Source: a bacterium
GTDB taxonomy: Bacteria; Patescibacteriota; UBA1384; 2-12-FULL-50-11
Length of the DNA stretch: 64,000 nucleotides
Direction: 5' to 3'
Assembly (NCBI GenBank): GCA_021463485.1
Contig: JAJTYJ010000002.1
Coordinates: 32,673-96,672, forward strand
The translations under genes and the position numbers were made by a program. The notes beneath the pieces were generated by a model that was not told where the DNA came from, searched no databases, and worked only from the letters and a program-made list of their open reading frames with translations. Shown one piece after another: positions 24,815 to 38,781 of this stretch. Numbering within the stretch: position 1 is the first letter of the stretch; each line of letters starts with the position of its first letter.

Positions 24815-26056
24815 ATGAACAAAGAAGTTCTCCAACCACTTTCAGGGTTCAGAGATTACAGCGGTCCGACCAAGGACTGGCTGATTGCTGGATTGCGCAA
24901 GGTTTTTCTCCAGTACGGCTATCAACCACTTGAAACCCCGGCGATCGAACGACAAGAACTTCTCCTCAAAGATTACGGTGAAGAGGCGCAGAAGTTGCTG
25001 TATTTATTTGAAGATAACGGCAAACGTAAAGTTGGTTTACGTTACGATTTAACGCTGCCGCTGGCACGATTCTACGCGGCCAACTATCAATCGTTACCGA
25101 CGCCGTATAAGCGATTCGAGATCGGTCCGGTTTGGCGGGCGGAACGCGCCCAAAAAGGCCGCCTACGCCAATTTACGCAAGCTGACATCGATATTGTTGG
25201 CGCACCCGGCCTGGCTGCCGAAAAAGAGATACTTTCAATCGTCGCTGGGGTAGAGCGTACGGTTGGTTTAACGTTTGAAGTACAACTAAACGATCGGGCG
25301 GTAGTAGCGGCCGTCTTTAATAAACTTAAAATTGTCGAAGGCTCACGCCAGAAGCTGCTACAAACGCTAGATAAAAAAGACAAAATTTCCGAAGAAGCGC
25401 TAGTTGAAGAGCTCTTAAAGCTTGGCGTCACCGATGTTCAACTTCGCCAAATACGATCGCTATTTCTTGAAAATGAAACGCTCGAAGACGTTGCTCGATT
25501 AGTTGGCGAAGAAGTAATAGCGCCGATTGTTGAGCTAATGGAAACAGCTCGACGGATCGGTGTAAACGCAGCATTTATTCCAAGCATGGTTCGCGGGCTC
25601 GATTATTACACTGGTACGATTATCGAATGTCGGGTTGAGGGTTACCCGTCGAGCGTTGCCGGCGGCGGTCGGTACGATAATCTCGTTGAGGGCTTAATCG
25701 GTCAAAGAGTACCAGCTGTGGGCGTGTCGTTTGGTGTTGATCGCTTAGTCGATATTCTAGATCAGCAGGGCCAAACGAACGACTCCGCGATGTTCATCGC
25801 CCGATTACCTGAAACGAGTTCAGAACTCGATCCTTGGGTTGAAAACTTACGGCAAGCTGGCTGTAACATTGAAGTCTTTTTGGATGAGGCTGTTGAGCTT
25901 GGTAAGCAAATAAAATACGCCGACAAACGCGGCTATCAAGAGATGCTAATCCCACTATTAGAAGATTGGAAGCAGGGAAAGATCGTACGAAAAAACCTGC
26001 AAAGCGGGGCACAAGAATCGATTCCAAGGGAACGGATTACGAATGCCGGAGCGTAA
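24815..26056 (+). CDS. hisS: histidyl-tRNA synthetase
   Basis: Class II motifs: motif 2 KRFEIGPVWRAERAQKGRLRQFTQADIDIVG and motif 3 GGGRYDNLVE. A C-terminal anticodon-binding domain is present. Confidence 0.9.
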   Translation: MNKEVLQPLSGFRDYSGPTKDWLIAGLRKVFLQYGYQPLETPAIERQELLLKDYGEEAQKLLYLFEDNGKRKVGLRYDLTLPLARFYAANYQSLPTPYKRFEIGPVWRAERAQKGRLRQFTQADIDIVGAPGLAAEKEILSIVAGVERTVGLTFEVQLNDRAVVAAVFNKLKIVEGSRQKLLQTLDKKDKISEEALVEELLKLGVTDVQLRQIRSLFLENETLEDVARLVGEEVIAPIVELMETARRIGVNAAFIPSMVRGLDYYTGTIIECRVEGYPSSVAGGGRYDNLVEGLIGQRVPAVGVSFGVDRLVDILDQQGQTNDSAMFIARLPETSSELDPWVENLRQAGCNIEVFLDEAVELGKQIKYADKRGYQEMLIPLLEDWKQGKIVRKNLQSGAQESIPRERITNAGA

Positions 26057-28919
26057 GTTTGTTGGTAAAAAATTTCCGTCGTTATTTGCGATGGAAGAGT
26101 CGGTGCTCGATTTTTGGCAACGAGACAAAACCTACGAAAAGTCGTTAGAGCAAACTAAAAATGGCGAGGTTTTCTCGTTCTACGACGGCCCGCCGTTTAT
26201 TACCGGCATTCCACACTACGCGACGCTGTTGCCAAGTATCGCCAAAGACGTCGTGCCGAGGTTCCAAACGATGAAAGGGCGTTTTGTACGTAGAACTTGG
26301 GGTTGGGATGTTCACGGATTGCCTGCTGAGAATCAGGTCGAGAAAAAACTCGGGCTGAAATCAAAAAAAGATATACAGACACTGGGTCTGGATAAGTTTA
26401 TCGAGGAGTGCCGTCAGTACGTTTCGGAAGTATCGGGTGCCTGGCGCTGGTATATCGACCATATCGGTCGATGGGCGGATATCGACAACGCGTATCGAAC
26501 CGACAATCTCAACTATATGGAGTCGGTGATGGCGATGTTTAAGCAACTGTACGAACAGGAATTAATTTACCGAGGCCGTCGGGTGTCGTTGTACTGTCCG
26601 CGCTGCGCTACGCCGCTGTCGAAATTTGAGATTACGATGGACGACGGGAACTACAAAGACGTCGAGGATCCAGCCGTTACGGTTTCGTTCCGACTTTTAA
26701 ACGACGATGTGTACCTACTTGCTTGGACAACGACGCCGTGGACGCTACCAGCCAACCTAGCGTTGGCAGTGGACGAGAACGCTGAGTACGTTAAGGTTTC
26801 AGACGGTACTAAACAGTACATTTTGGCGCACCAAGCGCTCGAGCGCTACCAGGACGGATCGCTCGAGGTGATAGAGTACCTCAAAGGTAGCTCGCTCGTA
26901 GGTGAGTCTTACGAGCCGCTTTACACTTTTTTGCCGATCAATGCGGACAAAGATTACAAAGTTCTGCCGGGAACATTTGTTTCGATGGACGAAGGTACCG
27001 GCATTGTTCATATCGCGCCAGGTTTTGGCGAGGACGATACCAAATTAGGCGAAGCGAACGGTTTATCGATGCACGAAACGCTCGACGCGGAGGGCCACTT
27101 TGTAACCGAGGTGAAGCCGTGGGCGGGGATGTATTACAAAAAAGCTAACGATCCGATCACGGAAGATCTTCGTTCGAGAAACCACCTGTTTAAAGAAGAG
27201 CGAATTACGCACTCATATCCGCATTGTTATCGTTGTCAGACGCCGCTTATCTACAAAGCTCAAGTTTCTTGGTATCTGCGTCTGGACCCAATTCGAGATC
27301 AGCTAATTGCGACCAATAAAGACATTAACTGGGTGCCGAAACACTTCGGACCCGGCCGGTTCTTGCACAATTTAGAGAATGCGCCCGATTGGTCGCTGTC
27401 GCGAACCCGTTACTGGGGCTCGCCGATTCCGGTGTGGCAGACCGAAGACGGTGAAATGTTTGTGGCGGGTTCGATCGCTGAGCTCGAGAAGCTCTCCGGT
27501 CAAAAAATTACCGATTTACACCGACCAGCCATCGATAATGTGGTTTTAACACTGCCCTCCGGCAAAAAGGCGACGCGCGTTGAAGAAGTACTAGACTGTT
27601 GGTTCGAGTCTGGCGCTATGCCGTACGCACAGGATCACTATCCGTTTGAAAATAAGCAGTTGTTCGAACGCCACTTTCCGGCGGATTTCATTATCGAGTA
27701 TACCGGGCAGTTGCGCGGCTGGTTTTACTACTTACACGTGCTCTCAAACGCCTTTCGAAAAAGCGTGGCTTTCAAAAACGTCGTCGTTACTGGGGTGCTT
27801 ATGGGCAACGACGGTCGCAAGATGAGCAAATCGTACGGTAACTATCCGGATCCGAAAGCGACAATCGAGAAATACGGCGCCGAGGCGATTCGACTGTATT
27901 TTATGGGCAGTAAAATTATGAGCGGCGAAGACGTAGCGATTACGGAAGACGAGATCCGTGAGCAATCGCGCTTACTGAATGTGTTACACAACAGTTATCA
28001 CTATTTTCTTACCTACGCAGCGCTTCACAGTTGGGAGCCAACTTCATTAGATAAAAGCAATTTACTCGATCGCTGGATTAGTACGCGGGCTGAACAGTTG
28101 GTTGACGAAATTAATAGCAATTTAAGCTCGCTTAGCCTTCAAGCCGCCACGAAAGCGATTCGGCCGTTTATCGAGGATTTGTCTACTTGGTATATCCGTC
28201 GCAATCGAGATCGTTTTGTTGCTGGCGACAAGGCCGCGCTCCAAACCCTCTACGAAGTAATGCATCTATTCAGTCGGGCGATCGCCCCGATTCTACCGTT
28301 CTCGGCCGAGGTAATCTTCCAAGGTCTCGAGCGCGCCGAACAATCTGTTCACCTCCAGTCGTTCCCTGAACCAAACGTCGTTGGCGTAGAGGAGAATCAA
28401 GAGCTACTAGAAAAAATGGAGCTGGTTCGTTCGATCTGCTCAAACGGTAATATGCTGCGAAGCCAAGCCGGTGTGTCGCTTCGCCAGCCGCTCGCCGCTG
28501 TCCGCCTTTTTGGCTACAAGGAACTTGAAAACGAACCAGAGTACCAAGCGATCATTACAGACGAGCTCAACGTTAAAGCCATCGAGTTTGGCCCGGTTAA
28601 AAAAAGTTGGGTTAAGTTGGAAGACCGCGGCAAAGAGATCGGACTTGATACTACAGTTACTGCCGAACTTGCTGCTGAAGGAAGATATCGTGAATTGCTC
28701 CGCAAGCTTCAAGATGCCCGCAAGAAGGCTGGTTTGAACGTCGGAGAGAGGGTCTCGGCTAAAATCTTTGCAGAAGGAAATGCTCTAGAAATTATAAAGC
28801 AGTTTTCTACTGATCTTACCAAGGCTGCTTCGCTCCAGAACCTTGAGCTACTCCCCGATAATTCTGAAGAATTAACCCAGCTTCCAGACGAAGACATCTG
28901 GTACAAATTCGGCAACTAA
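26043..28919 (+). CDS. ileS: isoleucyl-tRNA synthetase (type 2)
   Basis: FYDGPPFITGIPHYATLL aligns to the type-2 IleRS HIGH region. Also WGWDVHGLP, the editing domain, and KMSKSYGN. 958 aa. Confidence 0.9.
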   Translation: MPERKFVGKKFPSLFAMEESVLDFWQRDKTYEKSLEQTKNGEVFSFYDGPPFITGIPHYATLLPSIAKDVVPRFQTMKGRFVRRTWGWDVHGLPAENQVEKKLGLKSKKDIQTLGLDKFIEECRQYVSEVSGAWRWYIDHIGRWADIDNAYRTDNLNYMESVMAMFKQLYEQELIYRGRRVSLYCPRCATPLSKFEITMDDGNYKDVEDPAVTVSFRLLNDDVYLLAWTTTPWTLPANLALAVDENAEYVKVSDGTKQYILAHQALERYQDGSLEVIEYLKGSSLVGESYEPLYTFLPINADKDYKVLPGTFVSMDEGTGIVHIAPGFGEDDTKLGEANGLSMHETLDAEGHFVTEVKPWAGMYYKKANDPITEDLRSRNHLFKEERITHSYPHCYRCQTPLIYKAQVSWYLRLDPIRDQLIATNKDINWVPKHFGPGRFLHNLENAPDWSLSRTRYWGSPIPVWQTEDGEMFVAGSIAELEKLSGQKITDLHRPAIDNVVLTLPSGKKATRVEEVLDCWFESGAMPYAQDHYPFENKQLFERHFPADFIIEYTGQLRGWFYYLHVLSNAFRKSVAFKNVVVTGVLMGNDGRKMSKSYGNYPDPKATIEKYGAEAIRLYFMGSKIMSGEDVAITEDEIREQSRLLNVLHNSYHYFLTYAALHSWEPTSLDKSNLLDRWISTRAEQLVDEINSNLSSLSLQAATKAIRPFIEDLSTWYIRRNRDRFVAGDKAALQTLYEVMHLFSRAIAPILPFSAEVIFQGLERAEQSVHLQSFPEPNVVGVEENQELLEKMELVRSICSNGNMLRSQAGVSLRQPLAAVRLFGYKELENEPEYQAIITDELNVKAIEFGPVKKSWVKLEDRGKEIGLDTTVTAELAAEGRYRELLRKLQDARKKAGLNVGERVSAKIFAEGNALEIIKQFSTDLTKAASLQNLELLPDNSEELTQLPDEDIWYKFGN

Positions 28920-28963: not shown

Positions 28964-29635
28964 ATGATGACTACGGCGCAGTACGTCGCTGCGTTTATTT
29001 CTTGGGTACTCTTAAAGACTTTTACACGTTTTGAAATTCTAGGTAGAGAAAATCTTAAAGAGGTGTCGCGCCCATTTATTGTTGTATCTAATCACGAGAG
29101 CCATCTAGATCCGCAGTTAACAGGAGTAGCGTTACTGTATCGACCGTCGTTATATCCACTAAGGTTTATGGCGAAAAACGAGCTGTTCCGAATCCCGTTA
29201 TTAAATGTAGTTATTTGGTTGTTAGGGGCGTTCAAAGCGCATCGCAAACAAGGAATAGGTAAGTCGCTTCTAACCCCAACTAAAATCCTAGAAAAAGGCG
29301 GCTCCGTTATTCTGTTCCCAGAAGGAAAAATTATTCCTGAGCGACCAAAGCTTGGTGAGGGGCGACGCGGCGCAGCGATTTTGGCGCTAACTACCCGGGC
29401 AGCGCTTTTGCCAATCTCGCTTCATACACCGCACGGCTTAACGCCGTGGCGATTTATTGCGACTCGCCCAAAGATTGTTATTCGTATTGGCACACCGTTT
29501 TACCTGAACAACTTAGATTACCCAGATTTCTCCGATGAAAATACGTACAGAGCTACCCAAGAAATAATGCAAAAAATCGCGGATTTATACTACGAACACG
29601 ATTATTTACCCGTAAATAAAAAAAGCCCCAAATAG
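28964..29635 (+). CDS. plsC: 1-acyl-sn-glycerol-3-phosphate acyltransferase-like (PlsC family)
   Basis: HX4D motif VVSNHESHLDP and the FPEGK motif. Confidence 0.8.
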   Translation: MMTTAQYVAAFISWVLLKTFTRFEILGRENLKEVSRPFIVVSNHESHLDPQLTGVALLYRPSLYPLRFMAKNELFRIPLLNVVIWLLGAFKAHRKQGIGKSLLTPTKILEKGGSVILFPEGKIIPERPKLGEGRRGAAILALTTRAALLPISLHTPHGLTPWRFIATRPKIVIRIGTPFYLNNLDYPDFSDENTYRATQEIMQKIADLYYEHDYLPVNKKSPK

Positions 29636-29639
29636 GGGC
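29616..29639 (-). terminator. rho-independent terminator for the minus-strand three-gene operon (hairpin shared with plsC 3' end)
   Basis: GCCCC-AAATA-GGGGC hairpin at 29625-29639. An A7 run on the plus strand becomes a U7 run after the hairpin on the minus strand. Confidence 0.55.
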
Positions 29640-29643
29640 GGGG

Positions 29644-30255
29644 TTACTGGTCGAGTAGCCTTAAAACTTGTCGAACATTCTTACGAACGCTCAACTGGCC
29701 GTTGATGTGATGAAGAGTTGGGAAGTGTTTGCACACTTTACGGTATTGCTCATAGGAGCGAAGGATACTCTCATAGTCCTCAATAGTTGCTGGCAGTCCA
29801 TATGTGCTTCTTCTTTTTGCTCGTTCTATTACTCGACGAGCACATAGCACTGGGTCAGCCATAAATAAGAATATCTCTGAGGGGACAATAGCGCCCGCGC
29901 ACTCGTTCGCTGATAGTATTGCCTCCGGCTGTTGACCATCAAACGACTGGTAAACCATGCTAGTCCAAACAGATCGATCAAAGATGACTATGTTACTTGC
30001 AGAAATTTTGTCTGCTAGGCTAGCGTGAACCTCGGCTCTACATTCAGCAATCTCCTTCACCTTCCTAGCTGTGAATAGCTTTTCTTCGTGCGGAAGATTG
30101 TGCCAAGCAGAGATGTACGAGCGAAGAGGTTCGTGCTCTTTCTCGTTAATTCGTAGGATGTTCAAGCCCCTTTTGTCTAGTATTGATGATACTATCCTGC
30201 AACACGTGGTCTTCCCGGCGCCACTGACGCCCTCAAATGCGATTATTCTCGGCAT
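29644..30255 (-). CDS. thymidylate kinase-like P-loop nucleotide kinase
   Basis: Walker A IAFEGVSGAGKTT. Tmk-like blocks LFTARKVKEIAECRAEVHASL, IVIFDRSVWTSMVYQ and ADPVLCARRVIERAKR. Island-type codon usage (AGA/AGG/ATA/CTA). Confidence 0.7.
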   Translation of the reverse strand: MPRIIAFEGVSGAGKTTCCRIVSSILDKRGLNILRINEKEHEPLRSYISAWHNLPHEEKLFTARKVKEIAECRAEVHASLADKISASNIVIFDRSVWTSMVYQSFDGQQPEAILSANECAGAIVPSEIFLFMADPVLCARRVIERAKRRSTYGLPATIEDYESILRSYEQYRKVCKHFPTLHHINGQLSVRKNVRQVLRLLDQ

Positions 30256-30258
30256 ATA

Positions 30259-30849
30259 TTACCTCTTAAGGTGCAGAGTGTCGTTTTGAGTTATTACGTC
30301 AAAGCGACCATCGCTCAATAATATTTCTGTAATTGAGCAATGGTCGATTTGATTAGAGAAAATTGCATCTTGTGCGCTTTGCCCACGCAGCTGCCCAATT
30401 AGCAATTTAATAAATGCGCCGTGACCAACGACAAGTAAATCTCTAGCGTTCTCACTGGTTAAAATTGCTAAGAACTCTCTTATTCTTTGCTGAACATCAC
30501 TAATACTCTCCCCACCTGGGGGCTTTCTCGTCTCAAAGTCTCCAGCAAGTTTGTCCCATACTACTTCCCCAAACTTCTTTCCTTTAAATTCTCCAGCGTC
30601 TTTTTCTCTGAGGAGCTTTAAATACCGAATTATGTGCGTTCTTCCAGAAAGAAGGTATTTAGCTGTTTCCCTAGTTCTTGCCAGATCACTTACCAGTGCC
30701 TTATCAAACCGATACTTGTCAAGGCGTCTTCTCAACATCCTTACTTGCTCTTTGCCTTCAGCAGTAAAGCCGCCGTAGCTATGTCCGTGAAAGACTCGAT
30801 CTCTGTTTTCAACAGTTTCTGCGTGACGAACAATTATTATCCGCATCAT
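30259..30849 (-). CDS. histidine phosphatase superfamily (phosphoglycerate mutase-like) protein
   Basis: N-terminal RHAET catalytic motif (IIIVRHAETVENRDRVFHGHSYGGFTAEGKEQ) and a distal VVGHGAFI His. Confidence 0.8.
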   Translation of the reverse strand: MMRIIIVRHAETVENRDRVFHGHSYGGFTAEGKEQVRMLRRRLDKYRFDKALVSDLARTRETAKYLLSGRTHIIRYLKLLREKDAGEFKGKKFGEVVWDKLAGDFETRKPPGGESISDVQQRIREFLAILTSENARDLLVVGHGAFIKLLIGQLRGQSAQDAIFSNQIDHCSITEILLSDGRFDVITQNDTLHLKR

Positions 30850-32240
30850 ACTTGGAAATTGGTTTGAGAGTTACCAGCGCTCTTCGCTATCCTAGCCAAC
30901 TGTTTGTAGCGCTCATCTATTTTTGAATTCAATATCAAGCGCAAGGTTTGTTTTGAGGTGTGTGGGTGCTGAGCGACTAGCTTAAGTATGTAGCCGTACT
31001 CCATTTTCCCAAGAACGAATTCAGTAATGCTATGAATAATTGACTGTGGAAGATCATTCAAGCTCAACATACTTGCCATGAATTCCCAGCTCCACTGTTT
31101 TTGTTTACTAATAGACTGTAGTAACTTTTGCGAGTCAATCTTTTCTCCGATCAGCCATAAATTGGCCAGAATAATTTCTGGGCGGTTGTCGGTAAGCGGT
31201 TTAAGAAGTTTGTTCTTTGCAGCTTGCTGCCTTGCTCGTATTATCAGCTTTCCTCTATAGCCAAAGTTTTCAGTAATAAAACCATTCACCAACTTTTCCT
31301 TTATTTTTGCGATTGTACGCATTGAATCGGTAAATTTGTAGAAAGAGCTGTCTGGGAAAAGGTGCCGAATTGTTGTCGATTTTTGTAGTGATTGTAAGTT
31401 AGTTTCTATAAGCGATAGCCCATTATAATCAGTACCTTTATTAATTTTGAGCGCTTCAGAACGCAGCAACATTACGTTTGAAATTGAGCGTAACAGTTTT
31501 TCATACTCTGATCTGTTTACACTTCCATGTTCAAAAAGTAGGGATAGTGAGTTTGTGATACTAATCGGGGGTTGTATCCCTACACTGGTTGCAGTGTGCC
31601 GTGCGATCCAAATAAAAAATAATATGTCCCTCGTTCCGCCAGCCGAGTATTTAACATTAATATAACCGTTTTTTCTTCTCTTTGAGTAGTAATAGTCATA
31701 GCAAAACAGCTGAAAAAGAATGTTTCGCTTGGACCGTTCTAGTGTATTTTGCTTCTTCACCATAGCCCTAAAACTCTTAATCAAGCTTGGATCACCGCAC
31801 ACAATTTTAGACTCGAGTATTTGGTTGCCTTCGACAATGTTGGTTGAGCAAATCTTTGACAGCAGCCTGATTGTCCCCCAATCTGGTATATCAACCTTCG
31901 AATAGCCGAACTTGGCCATCTCGATAGAGAACTGCTTCCTAAACTCTCTTTCTTGTGTCGATTCGCTTCCTGTAATAATTAGGACATCTGCGTCCGAATA
32001 TGCTGCCATTTCCTGACGACCCGCAGAGCCATATATACCTACAGCGACCCTACACTCTGGGAATTTGGCGTAAAGCGAGTAGTAAATGTGTTCAACAGTC
32101 AAGCGGAAGTTTAATGAGTAGTATTTTGCTAATTCGAGACCAACGTATTGGCTCTGAGGAATGATATCCGAGTCTCTCAGAAAAACCGACTGTAATATAT
32201 GGCCGTCTATTCTTTTTTTGGAATCAAATTTCTGTTTCAT
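30846..32240 (-). CDS. GlnD/GlnE-type nucleotidyltransferase domain protein (DUF294-like NTase + substrate-binding region) with C-terminal unknown region
   Basis: Pol-beta NTase signature VAVGIYGSAGRQEMAAYSDADVLII (hG[GS]...D.D). Downstream KYSAGGTRDILFFIWIARH matches the conserved GlnD/GlnE K..GGxRDIEF block. 464 aa. Confidence 0.65.
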   Translation of the reverse strand: MKQKFDSKKRIDGHILQSVFLRDSDIIPQSQYVGLELAKYYSLNFRLTVEHIYYSLYAKFPECRVAVGIYGSAGRQEMAAYSDADVLIITGSESTQEREFRKQFSIEMAKFGYSKVDIPDWGTIRLLSKICSTNIVEGNQILESKIVCGDPSLIKSFRAMVKKQNTLERSKRNILFQLFCYDYYYSKRRKNGYINVKYSAGGTRDILFFIWIARHTATSVGIQPPISITNSLSLLFEHGSVNRSEYEKLLRSISNVMLLRSEALKINKGTDYNGLSLIETNLQSLQKSTTIRHLFPDSSFYKFTDSMRTIAKIKEKLVNGFITENFGYRGKLIIRARQQAAKNKLLKPLTDNRPEIILANLWLIGEKIDSQKLLQSISKQKQWSWEFMASMLSLNDLPQSIIHSITEFVLGKMEYGYILKLVAQHPHTSKQTLRLILNSKIDERYKQLARIAKSAGNSQTNFQV

Positions 32241-32375
32241 CTAGGACATTTTCGAGTGTAAGATGCAACTGGATCCATACTCTTGCGGTACTGTTCCGGT
32301 ATAGATTTAGTTGGGCGAACTCCTGGATGATCGTGCTGCCAGGAAGGAAACTTCCTGAGTACCTTACAGGAGACT

Positions 32376-32459
32376 ATGATGAATTGCCCGAATTGCGATG
32401 AAGAGATGATAGAGGATGACGACGGTTGGGTTTGCCCAAACTGTGGCTACGAAGAGTAA
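32376..32459 (+). CDS. 27-aa zinc-ribbon micro-ORF (MMNCPNCDEEMIEDDDGWVCPNCGYEE)
   Basis: ATG 32376 is preceded by GGAG at a spacing of about 8 nt. Two CPNC (CxxC) motifs 16 residues apart; highly acidic. Below the ORF-track size cut-off. Confidence 0.4.
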   Translation: MMNCPNCDEEMIEDDDGWVCPNCGYEE

Positions 32460-32504
32460 CCAGCTTGGTCGCTGGTGGATACGGCGACCAAGTATAATTA
32501 TTAT

Positions 32505-32897
32505 ATGCAACCTATAAGATATAAATATGGAGAACATAGGCAGGCTTTTTTGGCCGGGCAGCTGGTTGTATATGCGTTATTAATTAGAAACAGAACAAGA
32601 GACATCGCATGTCTAGACACTGGACTTAATAGAAACGATATTAGTAACGGAGGCTTTGTAGAGCTAAAGCAACTTGCTAAGGGGTATGGCTGTGAAGTTG
32701 CATTGAGTAAGCATGGCGAAGACAGATACTTACTACATGTCTACAGGAAAGACGCCGCAGAAAAGATGCGGGAAATGGATAGGGTTATACAGAGTTATCG
32801 CAGCGGGAAATTGTCCCGAGAAAGTTACGTCTGCCGCACTGGGGAAATATACGGCTATCCAGGTGAATCGATTAAATGGTTTCTCAAGAAAAAGTAA
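32505..32897 (+). CDS. hypothetical protein (~130 aa)
   Basis: ORF with island-type codon usage and no recognisable motif. An alternative GTG start is at 32475. Confidence 0.35.
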   Translation: MQPIRYKYGEHRQAFLAGQLVVYALLIRNRTRDIACLDTGLNRNDISNGGFVELKQLAKGYGCEVALSKHGEDRYLLHVYRKDAAEKMREMDRVIQSYRSGKLSRESYVCRTGEIYGYPGESIKWFLKKK

Positions 32898-32919
32898 TGA
32901 TTTCTATTTTTCCTAATTA

Positions 32920-34089
32920 ATGACTGAAATTCATTTTGTAAGGCTACCTCGAAAAAGCAATGAAGTATTTATTCGCGTTTTTACCAATGCGGGCCGGGAT
33001 AGCGAGAATAGGGATAATCAAGGGATTGGTCACCTACTTGACCACTATATAAACGGCGGGATTTTTCAGAAACATTACAATCTGGATACTAACGCATACA
33101 TCGATAGGGACTTTCTGTGGTTCTCGCTGAATACGACAAAGAAAAAACTTTTTAAGCAGTTGGAAAATTTTTTGCTATATGTCACTAAGCCAGATTTTAC
33201 TCAAGAGGAATTGCTGAATTTCGAGAAGCAGGCGTTAATCAACGAAATGAAATCCAGTGAAGCGGTGTTATACAACAAGCTATTTCAAGGTGTGGTCACG
33301 AAAACGCTCGCACATTATAGTAGTGTTTATAGGGAGATCGAGAATGTGCCTAGGTTTCAGCTTGGTGAGCTTGCACAGTACCATCGGGGGATAATAAATC
33401 AAGGCCCAGTCACGGTTATAGTCGGATATAACGGTTTGTCAAAAAAAGATCGACACCACATCTCTTCTTTGGTTAGCAGTAACTTTCCAGATAATTCTAA
33501 AAGTGTCATTCCTAGTTTCGTGACAGTTGGACCTCGCATTGAAAGTGTTGAGGAATTACCAAGTGATGCTAAGGGACAAGTACTAATTTACTTGGCGATG
33601 AAAACGTTTGGGTACTGCGATGAAAGAGAGAAGAGAATAGCCGTAAACCTTGCACTGCGTGAGCTGCGTGGACATTCAAAACACAGTCCGTTCCTTATGT
33701 TACGAAAGTTAGGTGTCTACTCGTTGGATTACAATCACTGGATAGGCCTTAGTTATGGGCAAGCCGTTATATCAATTGTATGTATGCCTCATGTGGTTGA
33801 TGAAGCGACAAATATACTAATGAGCTCGCTGAAGCATTTATCAGAGATGGGGTTGTCTAAGGCTGTAATAGAAAAGCATAAGAGAAGAAATAGTGAATAT
33901 TTTAAACAAATACAACAGAACAATGGTGAGTACTTCAGTAACGCACTAGACGATATTTTATACGAAGGCAAAGAGTTGAATTACAAGGAACATATGATTA
34001 GTTTCAAAAATATCACGCCAGAGATGACCAGAAGGATATATTCTGAGATATTCGCACCAAGCAACCTTTCAAAAATTATTTATAAGTAA
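32920..34089 (+). CDS. M16-family peptidase homolog with variant zinc motif (HxxDH)
   Basis: GIGHLLDHYINGG aligns with the GIAHFLEHMVFKGT of the canonical M16 gene at 1404, but the Glu is replaced by Asp. 389 aa, matching the single-domain M16 size. Confidence 0.55.
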   Translation: MTEIHFVRLPRKSNEVFIRVFTNAGRDSENRDNQGIGHLLDHYINGGIFQKHYNLDTNAYIDRDFLWFSLNTTKKKLFKQLENFLLYVTKPDFTQEELLNFEKQALINEMKSSEAVLYNKLFQGVVTKTLAHYSSVYREIENVPRFQLGELAQYHRGIINQGPVTVIVGYNGLSKKDRHHISSLVSSNFPDNSKSVIPSFVTVGPRIESVEELPSDAKGQVLIYLAMKTFGYCDEREKRIAVNLALRELRGHSKHSPFLMLRKLGVYSLDYNHWIGLSYGQAVISIVCMPHVVDEATNILMSSLKHLSEMGLSKAVIEKHKRRNSEYFKQIQQNNGEYFSNALDDILYEGKELNYKEHMISFKNITPEMTRRIYSEIFAPSNLSKIIYK

Positions 34090-34094
34090 TTGTA

Positions 34095-35474
34095 CTAATT
34101 GGAGTGTCTTTCCAGGTAGCTTAGCCTCCATGCTAAGTCGTGGATTGCTTCTTTCTTTAACGCAATGAAAGCGTTTCTGGATGTAGCTGTATAGTCGCTC
34201 ATCGACTCAATTCTAAATAACGGCTTTCGTGTTTGGTTCTCGCCGGCGAGTATCTTCATCGGGTACCCGTCGAACCCCAACTCCCAAAGAATCTGACCCT
34301 CCTCAGCACTGTCGAGCGCCAACATCTTAAGCATTTGATACTTCAGATTCTGCTTCGTGCGCCTTGGGTAATCTGACTGTTTAAAGTATTCGATCGCTTC
34401 ACGAACAATAGCCTGGGCTGCGTCTACTAATTTTCCATTATTGGCAGCTTGTTTCGTCATTTTAAATTTAGTTAGAGGATTTACTTCTAGCTTTTCTGGT
34501 ACATGAAAATCTTTTATTAAGTTGCTGACGTCCGAATCTGTAATTAGTGAGAATCCTTTTCCGGTGTTATATAGTAAGTCCCTTAAGAAAGTTGTGAACC
34601 AATCATAGAAGCTGTGAGAGAAGATATAAAAGAACACAAATGCACCAAGTATTGCTTGAGCGTTTCGACCCATTTCAGGAATAATATGTTGGCTGAAAAC
34701 CATAGCTGGTAATAATGTTATTAAGGCAATCGCGCAAGACAAGTAGATAAACTCTTTAATTTCAAACAACCCCTCAATGTCGGAGATTAGGCCATAGTAG
34801 AAAATCGACACTGCAATAAAAAATACAGGCACAATAAGCAGGGGTGAGGTTGAGTAGACGGCGAGGAAGTAGTTGTCGGTTTGATATACATAGACTAAAA
34901 ACAACCCTGAAATAATGTAGAGCACAGAGGCAATGATGGGTAATAAAAACTTAGTTCTCCTTCGACTATCATTCTCTTTACTGCGCGCAGTTATGTAGGT
35001 GTAGAGTGATACAGACATAGCCCACACCACGATTAGCGCTATTGCATTAAACAACGGACCCCTCTTGTAAAACTCACCAAAACTCTCGTCTGAAATTAAT
35101 AGGGAGCTGTAGTCTATAACTAGATTTGAAGTACTGGAGAGTATTATGAGCAGAATAGCGATGGAATATATAAACCATAATTGTATCCAAATGGATTTTT
35201 TGTAATTCTGTGTTACTAGTAAAGCAAAATGGAGCAGCAGGGGGATGGGCAAGATGTATGACCAATTCGTAAGATGGTACAGGAATATTGAGGTGAGCTG
35301 GTCATCTGTGAAAAGAGGGGTAATCGCATCCACGACGAGTATGTACCAACTCAAACTAAAAAGAAAAAAGAAAATCACCCAAGCAGTTTTGCTCCGTATA
35401 TTCCTACTAACCAAGTAAACACCAACCCAAAACAAAAAAGCACTAACGATAAACTGGAACCAGAATAGAGACAT
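34095..35474 (-). CDS. 7TM receptor-like membrane protein (HisKA_7TM-like N-terminal domain) with ~170-aa cytoplasmic C-terminal domain of unknown function
   Basis: About 7-8 TM helices. The N-terminal LVSRNIRSKTAWVIFF resembles the FSNPIAAVNRVFGLL of the adjacent kinase's sensor. The C-terminal soluble domain has no kinase motifs. Confidence 0.55.
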   Translation of the reverse strand: MSLFWFQFIVSAFLFWVGVYLVSRNIRSKTAWVIFFFLFSLSWYILVVDAITPLFTDDQLTSIFLYHLTNWSYILPIPLLLHFALLVTQNYKKSIWIQLWFIYSIAILLIILSSTSNLVIDYSSLLISDESFGEFYKRGPLFNAIALIVVWAMSVSLYTYITARSKENDSRRRTKFLLPIIASVLYIISGLFLVYVYQTDNYFLAVYSTSPLLIVPVFFIAVSIFYYGLISDIEGLFEIKEFIYLSCAIALITLLPAMVFSQHIIPEMGRNAQAILGAFVFFYIFSHSFYDWFTTFLRDLLYNTGKGFSLITDSDVSNLIKDFHVPEKLEVNPLTKFKMTKQAANNGKLVDAAQAIVREAIEYFKQSDYPRRTKQNLKYQMLKMLALDSAEEGQILWELGFDGYPMKILAGENQTRKPLFRIESMSDYTATSRNAFIALKKEAIHDLAWRLSYLERHSN

Positions 35475-35497
35475 TTCTTATATAACTTATAGTAATT

Positions 35498-36508
35498 ATG
35501 TTACTTTTATATCATATGGCAGAAAGAATTAACGAAAATACCGCTGGTGAGGCAGTTTTTAATCCTATAGACCAGGATTTCTTAGGAGAGTCATACCCGG
35601 AGATTTTAAAGGATAAAAACTCAGCTACACGTGTAGGAGGTGATGAATTTGAGAAGCCAGCCTCGATCTTTGGACTCCGGATTCTATTTATTTGGATAAT
35701 TACAGTGATCACAGCAACCAAGAAAGGTTTTTTGGGAAAGAATTTAAAGACCAACAGTTTTTGGTTTGACGGTATTAGCCAAATTTGTCGTGACGTTAAA
35801 GATAATGCTTATAGCTGGAGGGCACTAGAGATAATATACAACCTGCCTAACTACCTCTCTAAAAAAATGTCACTTGATAGAATCGCTCTTTATTGGAATG
35901 GTCTTGAAAATGCTAAGGCTGTTAGAAACAGGTTAAGATTAACAAAAGAAATCCTCAGTAGAGAAATTGTAAAAAGAAAATCACAAGATACGATACGATT
36001 ACTATCGATAGCCAGCGGATCTGCCCGTGCGGTATTAGAAACACTGGCTGAGGTCGTTGATAAACATCAGGTTAGTTTCGAGTTTAGACTCCTTGATCTC
36101 GATCCTACTGCGTCCGTTTATGCACAAAACTTAGCAACCGAGCTAGGCGTTGCTAATCGCTGCAAAATGATAGTGGGGAGTACGACTGATATGAAAAAAC
36201 TTCTAGGCAACTATAGACCAGATATTATCGAGATGGTAGGGTTTCTTGAATATAGAAATAGAGAGAAGGCAGTTAACCTACTAAAGAAGATAAAAGAATT
36301 ACTTGCACCAGGCGGGAGTATTATTTTTAGTCAGGTTAAACCAAATAGAGAAATGTATTTTCTAAGATTCGTAATGAATTGGCCGATGATTTACAGAACT
36401 GAGGAGGAGTTCAGGAAGATCCTTGTTGAGAGCGGCTATTATGATTACGAATTAGTGTCTGAGCCAATAGGAATACATATGGTTTGCAGCTTTCGTAAAG
36501 AAGGTTAA
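35498..36508 (+). CDS. class I SAM-dependent methyltransferase
   Basis: LLSIASGSARAVLE (motif I-like) and LAPGGSIIFSQV (post-I/II). Stop TAA overlaps the ATG of the kinase (TAATG). A possible alternative start is at 35516. Confidence 0.65.
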   Translation: MLLLYHMAERINENTAGEAVFNPIDQDFLGESYPEILKDKNSATRVGGDEFEKPASIFGLRILFIWIITVITATKKGFLGKNLKTNSFWFDGISQICRDVKDNAYSWRALEIIYNLPNYLSKKMSLDRIALYWNGLENAKAVRNRLRLTKEILSREIVKRKSQDTIRLLSIASGSARAVLETLAEVVDKHQVSFEFRLLDLDPTASVYAQNLATELGVANRCKMIVGSTTDMKKLLGNYRPDIIEMVGFLEYRNREKAVNLLKKIKELLAPGGSIIFSQVKPNREMYFLRFVMNWPMIYRTEEEFRKILVESGYYDYELVSEPIGIHMVCSFRKEG

Positions 36509-38781
36509 TGCAACAACTCATCGCGTTTACAGGGTTGATTATAGCAGTTGCAAGCCTAGCCCTAGGAGGACTAGTAGTATTCAGTAACCCAATCGCTGCT
36601 GTGAATAGGGTGTTTGGTCTTTTGGGTCTCTCACTTGCAGTGTGGGGATTCGGTTACTATAACTCCTTCTCGGCCACCGACCCGATCGCTGCACTTTTTT
36701 GGGCAAAAGTATTCATGTTGGGGGCTGCGTTCATTCCAGTCTTCTACTTGCATTTTGTTGTACTATTTATAAATAGATATCCAAAGTTTAAATTTTCGAT
36801 TGTATCTGGTTATATTCTTTCTACAACATTTGCCTATGCAAGCCTGGTTTCCGAAAACTTTATATCTCGAGTCGCCCCAAATAGGTGGTTCACTTTCTGG
36901 CCAATAGCTGGTGATTTTTATATATATTTTCTTGTTTTCTTCTTTGCTGCCCTTGTTTTCTCCATTTACTTATTATCAAGAAAGTCGGGGTTAAAAGCGG
37001 TAGATTTACTGCAGGAAAAGTATCTAATTATTGGGGCGACCGTAGGGTTGTTGGGCGGGGCAACAAACTATCCTCAGTGGTATGGCATCGATATACCACC
37101 AGTTGGTAACATACTTGTTCTTGCTTTTCCGGTTTCTATTACATATGCGATCTTAAAAACCAGATTATTCAACATAAAGGTATTGCTAACAGAAGTTGCA
37201 GTTGGCGCTGTGGTTTCTATTGCCTTGGTCCAGACTATTGCGCTTTCAGGTAGCCAATTAGTCACAGGGGGCCTCCTGACTTTATCACTTGCGGTCGGCG
37301 GAATTGTTCTAATTAAATCGGTTCGGACGGAAGTTGATAAAAGGGAAGAAATAGAGAAGTTAGCGAAGGAAAAAATCGAAACTCTTAAAGAGCTTGAGCA
37401 ACGCAATAAAAGCTTAGCAGCGTTGCAGCGCGTATCTGATATCGTCCTGAATGAGATGGATATGAAGGCGATGTCGCAGAAAATTCTCGACGAAATCCCT
37501 GTTCAACTAGAAAACTGCGTTGGCGCCTTCCTTTCGATCGTCCGCGGCGGTCACCTTGTCGCCTATACCGTCTCGACCAACACCTTTACCCGCAAAGTTT
37601 ACTCACTGGTAGGCGAAGATTTAGAGAAATATAGCTACCCAATAAAGAAGGAGTTTAACGGTCTACACGAGGTGCTCATCGAAAAAAGGATGGTCGAGGG
37701 TGACAGTCTGGATGCGTTTATCTGCCCGCCGATTAGTCGTCCGGTGGCGAAAACGCTACAGCGCTTGATCGGAGCCAAACATTTAGTAGCGCTGCCGCTC
37801 TATGCCAGCGGCGAGCCGCTTGGGGTAATGATGTTTGTTTATAAGGTCGAGAAAAGTCGGCTCCACGGGAAAGACGTGGAGATCGCTAAGGCGATCGCCG
37901 ACGACATGAGCTTGGCGATTCAACGCGCTCAGGCGTTCCAAAAGCTTAAAGACGCTAACGAATACCTTAGCCAATTAGACAAGATGAAGGACGAGTTTAT
38001 CTCGATGGCTTCGCACGAGCTCAATACGCCGTTAGCAGCGATCGAAGGCTATCTTTCGATGGTTCTCGACGAGGGGATGGGGAAAGTCGACGCTAAAAGC
38101 AAAGAGTATCTATCTCGGGCGTACGCCAGTAGTAAGCGTCTGGCTGAGCTGATTCTCGACCTTTTGAACGTCTCCCGAATCGAGCAGGGTCGTTTGAAGA
38201 TGAAGTTTTCCCAGGTAAGTATGGTTGAGCTAGCGGAGAGCGTAGTACATGAGTTACAGATTAAAGCTGATAGTAAAAAGATTTATTTGAAGATCGAAGC
38301 GGAAAAAGGCTTGCCAAAACTCTGGTGCGATCCCGACCGCATCCGTGAAGTAATCGTTAATCTAACCGGTAACGCGTTAAAATTCACCGACAAAGGCGGA
38401 GTTACAATCAGCATCGGTAAATCCGAGGGCGGTTTTATCCGGGTAACAGTTGTCGACACCGGTCGCGGTATCGCCAAGGAAGATCAAAAGAAGCTTTTCC
38501 AGAAGTTCTCTCAGGTTAAGCGTGAGATCGACGAACACCAGGGAACCGGACTCGGTCTGTATATCAGCAAGAACTTCGTGGAGTTGCACAAGGGTAAGAT
38601 TTGGGTCGAGAGCGAAGCGGGCAAGGGCTCGAAGTTTATCTTTGAGATTCCGCTATTGAAAGAAGCGCCGAAACAGCTTGAAGGGGCAATCTTAGAGAAG
38701 CCAATTACCGAAGCGCAAATTGAAGTCGGCACCAAAGACGTACCGACAATTATCGCCGAATCAGTAGACGGTAAAATTTAA
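36508..38781 (+). CDS. sensor histidine kinase (7TM sensor + GAF-like + HisKA + HATPase_c)
   Basis: N-terminal 7 TM helices. H-box ISMASHELNTPL, N-box NLTGNALKFT, G1 DTGRGI, G2 GTGLGL. Confidence 0.85.
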   Translation: MQQLIAFTGLIIAVASLALGGLVVFSNPIAAVNRVFGLLGLSLAVWGFGYYNSFSATDPIAALFWAKVFMLGAAFIPVFYLHFVVLFINRYPKFKFSIVSGYILSTTFAYASLVSENFISRVAPNRWFTFWPIAGDFYIYFLVFFFAALVFSIYLLSRKSGLKAVDLLQEKYLIIGATVGLLGGATNYPQWYGIDIPPVGNILVLAFPVSITYAILKTRLFNIKVLLTEVAVGAVVSIALVQTIALSGSQLVTGGLLTLSLAVGGIVLIKSVRTEVDKREEIEKLAKEKIETLKELEQRNKSLAALQRVSDIVLNEMDMKAMSQKILDEIPVQLENCVGAFLSIVRGGHLVAYTVSTNTFTRKVYSLVGEDLEKYSYPIKKEFNGLHEVLIEKRMVEGDSLDAFICPPISRPVAKTLQRLIGAKHLVALPLYASGEPLGVMMFVYKVEKSRLHGKDVEIAKAIADDMSLAIQRAQAFQKLKDANEYLSQLDKMKDEFISMASHELNTPLAAIEGYLSMVLDEGMGKVDAKSKEYLSRAYASSKRLAELILDLLNVSRIEQGRLKMKFSQVSMVELAESVVHELQIKADSKKIYLKIEAEKGLPKLWCDPDRIREVIVNLTGNALKFTDKGGVTISIGKSEGGFIRVTVVDTGRGIAKEDQKKLFQKFSQVKREIDEHQGTGLGLYISKNFVELHKGKIWVESEAGKGSKFIFEIPLLKEAPKQLEGAILEKPITEAQIEVGTKDVPTIIAESVDGKI

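What the first reader, a model, noticed from the sequence alone, without database searches (positions are those of the whole stretch)
29644..32240. Three-gene operon: GlnD/GlnE-type nucleotidyltransferase – histidine phosphatase – Tmk-like kinase (candidate nucleotide-modifying/signalling or defence module)
Three minus-strand genes are tightly packed. The 30846..32240 stop overlaps the 30259..30849 start by 4 nt, there is a 3-nt gap to 29644..30255, and the set ends in a clean intrinsic terminator. The genes encode a Pol-beta-superfamily NTase with the GlnD/GlnE motifs (YGSAGRQEMAAYSDADVLII and KYSAGGTRDILFF), an RHAET histidine phosphatase, and a P-loop kinase whose blocks match thymidylate kinase (LFxARxxEI...H, FDRSxxxSxxYQ, ADPxxxxRRxxxRxKR). 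Together this gives a nucleotidyl-transfer, phosphate-removal and phosphate-addition toolkit. That combination is reminiscent of polynucleotide end-healing and sealing cassettes, or of nucleotide-second-messenger or nucleotide-depletion defence operons, but it matches no named system I recognise. Its location in a foreign-composition island argues against it being the housekeeping tmk.
Basis: partly seen in the sequence, partly recalled or inferred. Interest (0 to 1): 0.7.

Follow-up and report, generated by a model that had tools for sequence, protein, structure and literature searches.

The report
Conserved nucleotidyltransferase, phosphatase, kinase gene module
Three tightly packed genes in this ultra-small bacterium (a GlnE/DrrA-like nucleotidyltransferase, a histidine phosphatase and a thymidylate-kinase-like kinase) form a rare, undescribed module that travels as a unit among DPANN archaea and CPR bacteria, and its biochemical product is still unknown.

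Summary
Three minus-strand genes (30846..32240, 30259..30849, 29644..30255) are joined by an ATGA overlap and a 3-nt gap and end in a clean terminator. All quoted motifs are present.

In 36 of 37 related loci with enough flanking DNA, this NTase sits next to both a kinase and a phosphohydrolase. The gene order occurs in three circular permutations. Both partner roles are filled by unrelated families: the kinase is Tmk-like, PfkB or APH/adenylate-kinase-like, and the phosphohydrolase is His-phosphatase, EEP, HD or HAD. No fourth gene is conserved.

Hosts are mostly DPANN archaea plus a few CPR bacteria, which implies inter-domain transfer. The kinase is not a canonical tmk. I found no phage, plasmid, PADLOC or clear defence-island signal, and no published description.

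Best reading (inferred, ~0.4): a phosphorylate, nucleotidylate, dephosphorylate pathway on a nucleoside- or nucleotide-like small molecule. Main rival (~0.25): a protein NMPylation switch.

The parts
30846..32240 (-). GlnE/GlnD/DrrA-class nucleotidyltransferase, 464 aa; the invariant core gene of the module
31341..32153 (-). NTase catalytic domain plus HEPN-like helical 'substrate-binding' domain (about aa 30-300)
30849..31340 (-). C-terminal alpha-helical repeat (LRV/HEAT-like) domain, about aa 301-464, with the conserved tail motif GYGYILR..RN.NT...TL..I....RY..A..AL
30259..30849 (-). Branch-1 histidine phosphatase, 196 aa, CobC/PhoE/PspA-like
   Evidence: His_Phos_1 6e-37. The best NCBIfam hit is cobC at 112.8 bits, below the 162.9 cut-off. 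A profile search of PDB puts CobC first at 4e-25. Catalytic residues R8 H9 R58 E82 H143 are invariant.
29644..30255 (-). Thymidylate-kinase-like P-loop kinase, 203 aa; not a canonical Tmk
29618..29639 (-). Intrinsic terminator closing the operon (GCCCC-TATTT-GGGGC plus T7). It overlaps the 3' end of the convergent acyltransferase gene.
30262..30267 (-). AAGAGG Shine-Dalgarno site for the kinase, inside the 3' end of the phosphatase gene (translational coupling)
   Evidence: Read directly from the sequence.
32241..32474 (.). 234-nt divergent intergenic or leader region upstream of the NTase, with no recognised RNA element
   Evidence: Rfam E-value scan of 29000-33500 returned no hit at E<=1. 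Only weak promoter-like matches were found.

Best explanation
The three genes form a self-contained enzymatic module that acts on a nucleoside-, nucleotide- or sugar-phosphate-like small molecule in three steps.

Proposed steps:
1. A kinase (here Tmk-like) installs a phosphate.
2. The GlnE/DrrA-class nucleotidyltransferase joins an NMP from an NTP to the molecule.
3. A phosphomonoesterase (here a CobC-like histidine phosphatase) removes a phosphate 'handle'.

The product would be a nucleotidylated metabolite: dinucleotide-like or cofactor-like, or possibly a signal or an antimetabolite. This logic resembles the ADP-heptose pathway (kinase, phosphatase, adenylyltransferase) and cobamide nucleotide-loop assembly (CobU, CobS, then CobC).

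What is shown:
- It is an operon.
- All three enzymes keep intact catalytic residues.
- An NTase, a kinase and a phosphohydrolase co-occur obligatorily.
- The module occurs in DPANN and CPR organisms, and the window's copy is plausibly horizontally acquired.

What is inferred:
- The substrate class.
- The order of the steps.
- The nature of the product.
For: 1. Co-occurrence. In 36 of 37 loci with at least 1.5 kb on both sides of the NTase, a kinase and a phosphohydrolase both lie within 3.5 kb. Three circular permutations of the gene order occur, and no fourth gene is conserved.

2. Non-orthologous displacement in both partner slots.
- Kinase: Tmk-like, PfkB, or APH plus an adenylate-kinase-like P-loop protein.
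- Phosphohydrolase: His_Phos, EEP, HD or HAD.
A shared small-molecule intermediate tolerates such swaps much more easily than specific protein-protein recognition would.

3. Every partner family is typically a small-molecule or nucleotide enzyme.
- The phosphatase is closest to CobC, PspA and PhoE.
- The kinase model is closest to dTMP, deoxynucleoside and adenylate kinases.
- PfkB and APH phosphorylate small-molecule hydroxyls (established knowledge of these families).

4. NUDIX hydrolases and a SAM methyltransferase recur as optional extras.

5. Giant proteins fuse this NTase type to an APH kinase, an ARMT1 phosphatase, an HD domain, radical-SAM domains and glycosyltransferases.

6. The module crosses the archaea/bacteria boundary. 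That favours a universal target.

7. Catalytic residues are conserved in all three proteins.
Against: - All characterised enzymes of the closest structural class (GlnE, GlnD, DrrA) nucleotidylate protein tyrosines, not small molecules (plus established knowledge).
- The highly conserved helical-repeat tail looks like a macromolecule-binding surface.
- No substrate, riboswitch or transporter gives a direct chemical clue.
- The order of the steps is not determined by any data.
- RtcB lies within 5 kb in five loci, from three lineages. This hints at RNA.
- The rarity, patchy distribution and partner turnover look more like an accessory or conflict system than like core metabolism.
Confidence: 0.4

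Rival explanations
1. A reversible protein-nucleotidylation switch. The NTase would AMPylate or UMPylate a tyrosine (or Ser/Thr) of a housekeeping protein encoded elsewhere, recruited through the helical-repeat tail. The kinase/phosphatase pair would set the level of a small-molecule effector, or supply or clear the nucleotide, to control the NTase. This would parallel GlnD/PII, GlnE/GS and DrrA/SidD.
For: - The best sequence matches are to GlnD.
- In the Paceibacterota form an HD-domain gene sits beside the NTase, recalling the NT+HD arrangement of GlnD.
- EEP enzymes include tyrosyl-nucleotide phosphodiesterases such as TDP2 (own knowledge).
- The conserved solenoid tail suits protein binding.
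Against: - No candidate target gene is conserved next to the module.
- The partner enzymes are swapped for unrelated folds. That is hard to reconcile with their being targets or direct protein partners.
- His_Phos and HAD enzymes are phosphomonoesterases, not de-NMPylases.
- The module moves between archaea and bacteria, so any protein target would have to be universal.
Confidence: 0.25
2. An RNA (tRNA) end-healing or remodelling cassette. The kinase would phosphorylate 5'-OH ends, the phosphatase would remove 2',3'-cyclic or 3'-phosphates, and the NTase would extend or tag the healed 3' end. It might work together with RtcB.
For: - RtcB lies within 5 kb of the module in L034, L035, L036, L074 and L111, which belong to three NTase lineages.
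- RNase HII is nearby in three lineages.
- The phosphatase also resembles the CobC-like domain of the RNase H/acid phosphatase fusion, NF005567 at 2.6e-21.
- A kinase, phosphatase and NTase trio is formally similar to Pnkp-type healing enzymes.
Against: - PfkB and APH kinases, which replace it elsewhere, are not known as polynucleotide kinases.
- There is no ligase, RNA-binding domain or Hen1-type methyltransferase in the core.
- RtcB adjacency is present in only one or a few loci of each lineage, so it is not conserved.
- The NTase is not CCA-adding-like or poly(A)-polymerase-like.
Confidence: 0.1
3. An accessory conflict or defence module. It would make or destroy a nucleotide-derived molecule to block viruses or to manipulate the host cell of these episymbionts. 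This concerns the biological role and is compatible with either mechanism above.
For: - The family is rare and patchy: 20 hits among 185,579 species genomes, and about 52 clusters at E<=1e-30.
- Inter-domain transfers are implied by the tree.
- Module GC is often below flank GC.
- In the window it sits beside a strain-variable region.
- Partners turn over rapidly.
- MNT-HEPN toxin-antitoxin pairs sit next to it in L036, L041, L073 and L084.
- There is an analogy to viperin + CMPK2-type kinase clusters (own knowledge).
Against: - There is no meaningful PADLOC hit for any of the three proteins.
- The flanks are dominated by housekeeping genes, with only scattered generic PADLOC hits among 105 neighbours.
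- It is absent from viral contigs, phage and plasmid records, and BFVD.
- No effector-like toxin domain is present.
Confidence: 0.15
4. An ordinary housekeeping tmk that merely happens to lie beside two unrelated genes.
For: Pfam Thymidylate_kin scores above its gathering threshold (62.8 vs 27). No second tmk is present in the 64-kb window. The rest of the genome could not be searched.
Against: - The score is below the TIGR00041 equivalog cut-off (62.5 vs 83.25).
- The P-loop acidic residue, the REPGG segment and the aromatic residue of DR[Y/F] are missing in the window protein and in most family members, and the base-stacking Phe position is variable.
- The gene is co-inherited with the NTase in 69 loci, and other kinase folds replace it in other loci.
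Confidence: 0.03

Closest known systems
GlnE (glutamine synthetase adenylyltransferase), GlnD (PII uridylyltransferase) and Legionella DrrA/SidM AMPylase domain
   Same: - It shares the GS...DxD motif and the GGxRD motif typical of GlnD, GlnE and DUF294.
- The best sequence hits are GlnD models.
   Different: - It is a single 464-aa NTase unit.
- It has no HD or ACT domains (GlnD), no second NTase domain (GlnE), and no GEF or P4M domains (DrrA).
- It has a unique, conserved C-terminal LRV/HEAT-like tail.
- It is always paired with a kinase and a phosphohydrolase.
- It is found in DPANN archaea and CPR bacteria.
- Its target is unknown. It scores far below every GlnD equivalog cut-off (33.9 vs 890 bits).
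Thymidylate kinase (Tmk, PF02223/TIGR00041)
   Same: - The P-loop GxxGxGKTT, the DR motif, the acceptor-phosphate Arg (R73) and the LID arginines are conserved.
   Different: - It lacks the P-loop Asp/Glu.
- It lacks the REPGG segment.
- The aromatic residue of DR[Y/F] is replaced by S, G, T or C in most members.
- The position of the base-stacking Phe is variable.
- It has an extra insert and an extended LID.
- It scores below the equivalog cut-off.
- It is replaceable by PfkB or APH kinases.
CobC / PhoE / PspA-type branch-1 histidine phosphatases
   Same: The catalytic set (RHxE, R, E, H) is intact. CobC is the best match in both PDB and NCBIfam.
   Different: - It scores below the CobC equivalog cut-off (112.8 vs 162.9).
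- No cobamide genes lie nearby.
- EEP, HD or HAD hydrolases replace it in other loci.
ADP-heptose pathway (HldE/HldA kinase, GmhB phosphatase, HldC adenylyltransferase) and cobamide nucleotide-loop assembly (CobU, CobS, CobC)
   Same: The logic is the same: a kinase, a nucleotidyltransferase and a phosphatase act in sequence on one small molecule. PfkB kinases and HAD or His phosphatases occur in both. This comparison rests on my own knowledge of those pathways and is an analogy only.
   Different: - The NTase fold differs entirely: Pol-beta/GlnE-like here, cytidylyltransferase-like or P-loop there.
- There is no sugar-isomerase, CobS or CobT context.
- The substrate is unknown.
Pnkp/Hen1 and Trl1-type RNA end-healing and sealing systems
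   Same: Both combine kinase, phosphatase and nucleotidyl-transfer activities. RtcB is occasionally nearby.
   Different: The kinase is not polynucleotide-kinase-like. The NTase is not a ligase. There is no Hen1-type methyltransferase.
MNT-HEPN (MntA/HepT) type VII toxin-antitoxin and PDC-M05
   Same: Both have an NTase core followed by a HEPN-like domain. There are weak PADLOC and NCBIfam hits to the NTase core only.
   Different: The HEPN-like domain is fused and lacks the Rx4-6H RNase motif; the conserved residues are R260 and N267 instead. The protein is much larger, and it has enzyme partners rather than a toxin.

Membership tests
GlnD ([protein-PII] uridylyltransferase) | N-terminal Pol-beta NTase domain with GS..DxD, followed by the GlnD_UR_UTase helical domain | tested here: met
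   [not shown]
GlnD ([protein-PII] uridylyltransferase) | HD uridylyl-removing domain and two C-terminal ACT domains; length about 850-900 aa; equivalog score | tested here: not met
   The protein is 464 aa with no HD or ACT hit. The best GlnD equivalog scores 33.9 bits against a cut-off of 890.
GlnE (GS adenylyltransferase) | Two tandem NTase+helical modules (AT-N and AT-C), about 950 aa | tested here: not met
   There is one NTase module only. It aligns equally well to either GlnE half.
GlnE/GlnD/DrrA functional class (protein-tyrosine NMP transferases) | Transfers AMP or UMP to a tyrosine of a defined protein target | not testable with these tools
   This needs biochemistry. No conserved target gene lies nearby.
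dTMP kinase (Tmk, TIGR00041) | Equivalog-level sequence score | tested here: not met
   62.5 bits against a cut-off of 83.25. The Pfam family-level threshold is met: 62.8 vs 27.
dTMP kinase (Tmk, TIGR00041) | Substrate-site signature: P-loop acidic residue (EGxDGxGK), REPGG segment, DR[Y/F] aromatic, stacking Phe before the acceptor Arg | tested here: not met
   Twenty-three module kinases were aligned with A. aeolicus and T. thermophilus Tmk. The P-loop position is S/A/C/V/T/R. REPGG is deleted. DR is followed by S/G/T/C in most members. The Phe position is I/F/V/L. Which residues contact dTMP is from my own knowledge.
dTMP kinase (Tmk, TIGR00041) | Tmk-type fold with P-loop, DR motif and LID arginines | tested here: met
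   [not shown]
Alpha-ribazole phosphatase CobC (TIGR03162) | Equivalog score and cobamide gene context | tested here: not met
   112.8 bits against a cut-off of 162.9. No cob genes occur among the neighbours.
Histidine phosphatase superfamily branch 1 | Catalytic RHxE..R..E..H residues | tested here: met
   PF00300 at 6e-37 covers the full length. R8 H9 R58 E82 H143 are invariant.
Known anti-phage defence systems (PADLOC-DB 2.0) | Significant match of the components to a defence-system model | tested here: not met
   There are only weak, generic NTase-core and P-loop hits, with the best at 1.3e-5 and 8.8e-5.
Known anti-phage defence systems (PADLOC-DB 2.0) | Residence in defence islands or on mobile elements | tested here: inconclusive
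   Generic PADLOC hits are scattered among the 105 neighbours, and MNT-HEPN pairs occur in 4 loci. Most neighbours are housekeeping genes. There are no viral, phage or plasmid copies. No background rate was computed.
Pnkp-type RNA end-healing/sealing cassette | Polynucleotide 5'-kinase of the T4 Pnk/Clp1 type plus an RNA ligase | tested here: not met
   [not shown]

The most novel reading that the evidence does not exclude
The GlnE/DrrA-class NTase has been recruited away from protein tyrosines to build a previously unknown nucleotide-containing small molecule: a dinucleotide-like cofactor, signal or antimetabolite. It would do this together with an interchangeable kinase and phosphatase. The pathway would be specific to the ultra-small, host-dependent DPANN archaea and CPR bacteria, and it would be exchanged between the two domains. 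That would amount to a new metabolic or signalling pathway of episymbionts and a new reaction type for this enzyme class.
Probability: 0.3. Interest if true: 0.8.

Novelty: new variant of a known kind. Interest (0 to 1): 0.62.

Why it matters
DPANN archaea and CPR bacteria make up a large share of microbial diversity. They live as tiny, metabolically dependent symbionts, and most of their accessory genes have no known function.

This is a compact three-enzyme module with intact active sites. It has been kept together through three gene-order permutations and through replacement of both partner enzymes by unrelated folds, and it is shared across the archaea/bacteria divide. Conservation of that kind is strong comparative evidence that a specific biochemical function exists. 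No publication or database names it.

The core enzyme belongs to the GlnE/GlnD/DrrA class, whose known members all regulate proteins by AMPylation or UMPylation. There are two possible outcomes:
- It makes a small molecule, which would be new chemistry for this fold.
- It modifies a protein, which would be a new nucleotidylation switch in organisms where none is known.

All three proteins are small and soluble-looking, so the question can be tested directly in vitro.

Tried and rejected
- Riboswitch or leader RNA upstream of the operon: the Rfam E-value scan of 29000-33500 gave nothing.
- Phage or plasmid origin: the viral-contig scan, phage and plasmid tblastn (only weak true-glnD matches), PHROGs (the NTase has no family) and the BFVD fold search were all negative.
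- Defence system: PADLOC on the three proteins and on 105 neighbours gave only generic hits. A 'pVip' hit proved to be a generic 536-aa double radical-SAM protein two genes away in one lineage.
- Rosetta-stone fusions of the NTase to the Tmk-like kinase or the His phosphatase: none among 152 deep-search proteins. Fusions to other kinase and phosphatase types do exist in giant proteins.
- A conserved fourth gene or target: none.
- A second tmk in the window: none.
- The metagenome scan with the 63-sequence alignment failed because no stretch was conserved enough. It was repeated with 20 sequences.
- The afdb50 fold library was unavailable.
- Complex prediction was not possible with the tools.
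- Literature searches found no description of the module.
- Cobamide, NAD, FAD or CoA salvage were considered as specific identities of the pathway. They were not adopted because no supporting context genes exist.
Full report
**1. The observation**

I read the junctions directly.
- The NTase stop and the phosphatase start share ATGA.
- The phosphatase TAA is followed by TAT and then the kinase ATG. An AAGAGG ribosome-binding site lies inside the end of the phosphatase gene.
- The operon ends in GCCCC-TATTT-GGGGC plus T7.

All the quoted peptide motifs are present. Pfam and NCBIfam confirm the three domain calls:
- NTase: GlnD_UR_UTase and DUF294, with the best NCBIfam hits to GlnD at 1e-8.
- Phosphatase: His_Phos_1 at 6e-37, with cobC the best equivalog but below its cut-off.
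- Kinase: Thymidylate_kin at 4e-17, below the TIGR00041 cut-off.

GC falls to 0.37-0.45 between about 29 and 37 kb, against about 0.49 elsewhere.

**2. Source and rarity**

- The window is from Patescibacteria group bacterium BroJett034, contig BOKZ01000001.1, 685 kb.
- The identical NTase occurs on 12 assembled contigs. In some strain variants the region beyond the neighbouring M16 peptidase differs.
- The word-indexed search of 5.8 billion proteins found only four relatives.
- An exhaustive profile search of 1.84 billion representatives found 263 at E<=1e-3 and 52 at E<=1e-30.
- The species-genome scan found 20 loci. Most are Nanoarchaeota, Woesearchaeota or Pacearchaeota (DPANN). One each is Paceibacterota and Saccharibacteria, plus the window itself.
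- The metagenome scan added 80 loci, many from groundwater 0.1-µm filter fractions.

**3. The NTase**

- The first ~300 residues are therefore a GlnE/GlnD/DrrA-class NTase with its HEPN-like helical domain. The 2013 HEPN survey treats this class the same way (PMC3710099).
- Across 63 diverse members R75, D83, D85 and K197 are invariant. G71, S72, E77, S82, K115, N195, Y198, G201 and R204 are nearly so. The enzyme is presumably active.
- It fails the membership tests for GlnD (no HD or ACT; 33.9 vs 890 bits) and for GlnE (a single module).

**4. The partners in the window**

Phosphatase:
- It keeps R8, H9, R58, E82 and H143.
- As a profile it is closest to CobC, PspA and PhoE in the PDB.

Kinase:
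- It keeps the P-loop, R73, D93-R94 and the LID arginines.
- Aligned with two canonical Tmks, the family lacks the P-loop acidic residue and the REPGG segment. It usually has S, G, T or C in place of the aromatic residue of DR[Y/F], and the stacking-Phe position varies.
- It is Tmk-like but not a canonical dTMP kinase. No other tmk lies in the window.

**5. Neighbourhood census, the key result**

I called ORFs in 102 NTase loci, searched them with profiles of the three proteins and clustered all neighbours.
- The His phosphatase is present in 70 loci and the Tmk-like kinase in 69.
- The triad occurs in three circular permutations: PHOS-KIN-NT (20 loci), KIN-NT-PHOS (about 25) and NT-PHOS-KIN (the window's form, 4 loci).

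Where one partner seemed absent, an unrelated enzyme of the same activity was present.
- An APH-family kinase plus an adenylate-kinase-like P-loop protein, with two His phosphatases, in 16 loci. In L022 and L108 the phosphatase and the P-loop kinase are fused.
- An EEP-family hydrolase instead of the His phosphatase, in 12 loci and three arrangements.
- A PfkB kinase instead of the Tmk-like kinase, together with EEP, in L043, L057, L069 and L071.
- An HD-domain protein in the Paceibacterota loci, and a HAD hydrolase in L056 and L061.
- One clade inserts a second Tmk-like kinase, a SAM methyltransferase and a NUDIX hydrolase. NUDIX recurs elsewhere too.

Counting only loci with at least 1.5 kb on both sides of the NTase, 36 of 37 have both a kinase and a phosphohydrolase within 3.5 kb. 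The exception, L109, has a C-terminally truncated NTase. The loci span 29 NTase lineages at 60% identity. No other gene is conserved. Giant multidomain proteins fuse the same NTase type to an APH kinase, an ARMT1 phosphatase, an HD domain, B12-radical-SAM domains and glycosyltransferases.

**6. Evolution**

- In a crude NJ tree the window's NTase groups with the three other NT-PHOS-KIN loci.
- The Paceibacterota copy nests among DPANN clades, and the Saccharibacteria copy is a separate long branch.
- Module GC is below flank GC in the window and in several other loci.
- This fits repeated horizontal transfer, including transfer between domains.

**7. What it is not**

- No Rfam element lies in the leader.
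- There are no relatives in viral contigs, phage or plasmid records, PHROGs (for the NTase) or BFVD.
- PADLOC gives only generic similarity.
- The 105 non-redundant flanking genes are mostly housekeeping, with scattered generic PADLOC hits.
- MNT-HEPN toxin-antitoxin pairs flank the module in four loci, and RtcB lies within 5 kb in five loci from three lineages. I regard both as suggestive only.
- No paper in the library describes the module.

**8. Interpretation**

The invariant element is the NTase. The kinase and phosphohydrolase roles are conserved as activities, not as protein families. Such non-orthologous displacement is expected when enzymes are linked through a shared small-molecule intermediate. 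It is hard to explain if they were specific protein partners or targets of the NTase.

All partner families are typical small-molecule or nucleotide enzymes, and HAD and His phosphatases are monoesterases. NUDIX and methyltransferase add-ons also point to nucleotide-derived small molecules. I therefore favour a phosphorylate, nucleotidylate, dephosphorylate pathway on a nucleoside- or nucleotide-like substrate (confidence about 0.4). This is analogous in logic, but not homologous, to the ADP-heptose pathway and to cobamide nucleotide-loop assembly.

The main counter-argument is that every characterised enzyme of the closest structural class modifies protein tyrosines, and that the conserved helical tail looks like a macromolecule-binding surface. 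The rivals rank as follows:
- A protein NMPylation switch, about 0.25.
- An RNA end-healing role, about 0.1. The kinase fold neighbours and the lack of a ligase weaken it.
- A conflict or defence role, about 0.15. This is a role-level reading compatible with either mechanism. The module's rarity, mobility and modularity suggest it, but no defence database, island or virus evidence supports it.
- A plain housekeeping tmk, very unlikely.

**9. Verdict**

The operon is real, conserved, nucleotide-centred and unnamed, but the defence and end-healing readings are not supported.
- Novelty: a new family and a new gene-module variant built from known enzyme superfamilies. The biochemical function is unknown and directly testable.

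Noticed in passing
window 34095-38781 (compare L001 with L002/L005): Just beyond the module and the M16-like peptidase, strain variants of the same genome differ. The window and L001 carry a Methyltransf_20 gene. L002 and L005 instead carry a ThiF/E1-like gene plus a FeeM/acyl-transferase-like gene, next to a 7TM histidine kinase and response regulator. This looks like a variable signalling or peptide-modification locus.
   Followed up: no
window 30000-37000: A low-GC tract (0.37-0.44 against about 0.49) covers the module, a 140-aa orphan ORF, an M16-like peptidase, a 7TM protein and a methyltransferase. It may be one acquired island.
   Followed up: partly
window 32475-32897 (+), hairpin 32463-32493: A divergently transcribed 140-aa ORF has no Pfam, NCBIfam, PADLOC or PHROG match. 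A strong 12-bp hairpin overlaps its start. The ORF is present only in close strain variants and is called as 115-140 aa.
   Followed up: no
L034, L035, L036, L074, L111: An RtcB RNA ligase gene (PF01139, 4e-77) lies within 5 kb of the module in five loci from three NTase lineages. RNase HII is nearby in L019/L066/L067, L094 and L097. This may be a weak link to RNA metabolism, or it may be chance in small genomes.
   Followed up: partly
L036, L041 (two copies), L073, L084: HTH-MNT nucleotidyltransferase plus HEPN-like gene pairs (toxin-antitoxin type, PDC-M05/S09-like) sit next to the module in several lineages.
   Followed up: partly
P0113 (4223 aa), P0127 (2924 aa), P0135 (5747 aa): Giant proteins embed the same NTase type among HD, ARMT1 phosphatase, B12-binding radical-SAM, APH kinase, sugar-transferase and GT4 domains. 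Their organisms and functions are unknown. P0135 was too long to scan.
   Followed up: partly
L019 (CAYSDY010000001.1), L026, L027: MAGs labelled 'uncultured Methanosarcinales archaeon' carry the DPANN-type module. In L019 the flanks are very AT-rich (GC 0.26) and its NTase groups with Nanoarchaeota and Pacearchaeota copies. The taxonomic labels look doubtful.
   Followed up: no
L031 1468-2576; L109 5423-6640: These are decaying copies. In L031 the NTase is split into three fragments. In L109 a C-terminally truncated NTase stands alone, without a kinase or phosphatase. This is consistent with loss of the whole module once one part is lost.
   Followed up: partly
L015, L025, L047, L085, L089, L098: One clade carries an expanded module: Tmk-like kinase, SAM methyltransferase, NUDIX hydrolase, a second and shorter Tmk-like kinase (with DRY restored), then NTase and His phosphatase.
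   Followed up: partly
window 24815-28919: The HisRS and IleRS genes overlap by 14 nt (24815..26056 and 26043..28919). They lie directly upstream of the convergent PlsC-like acyltransferase that shares the module's terminator region.
   Followed up: no
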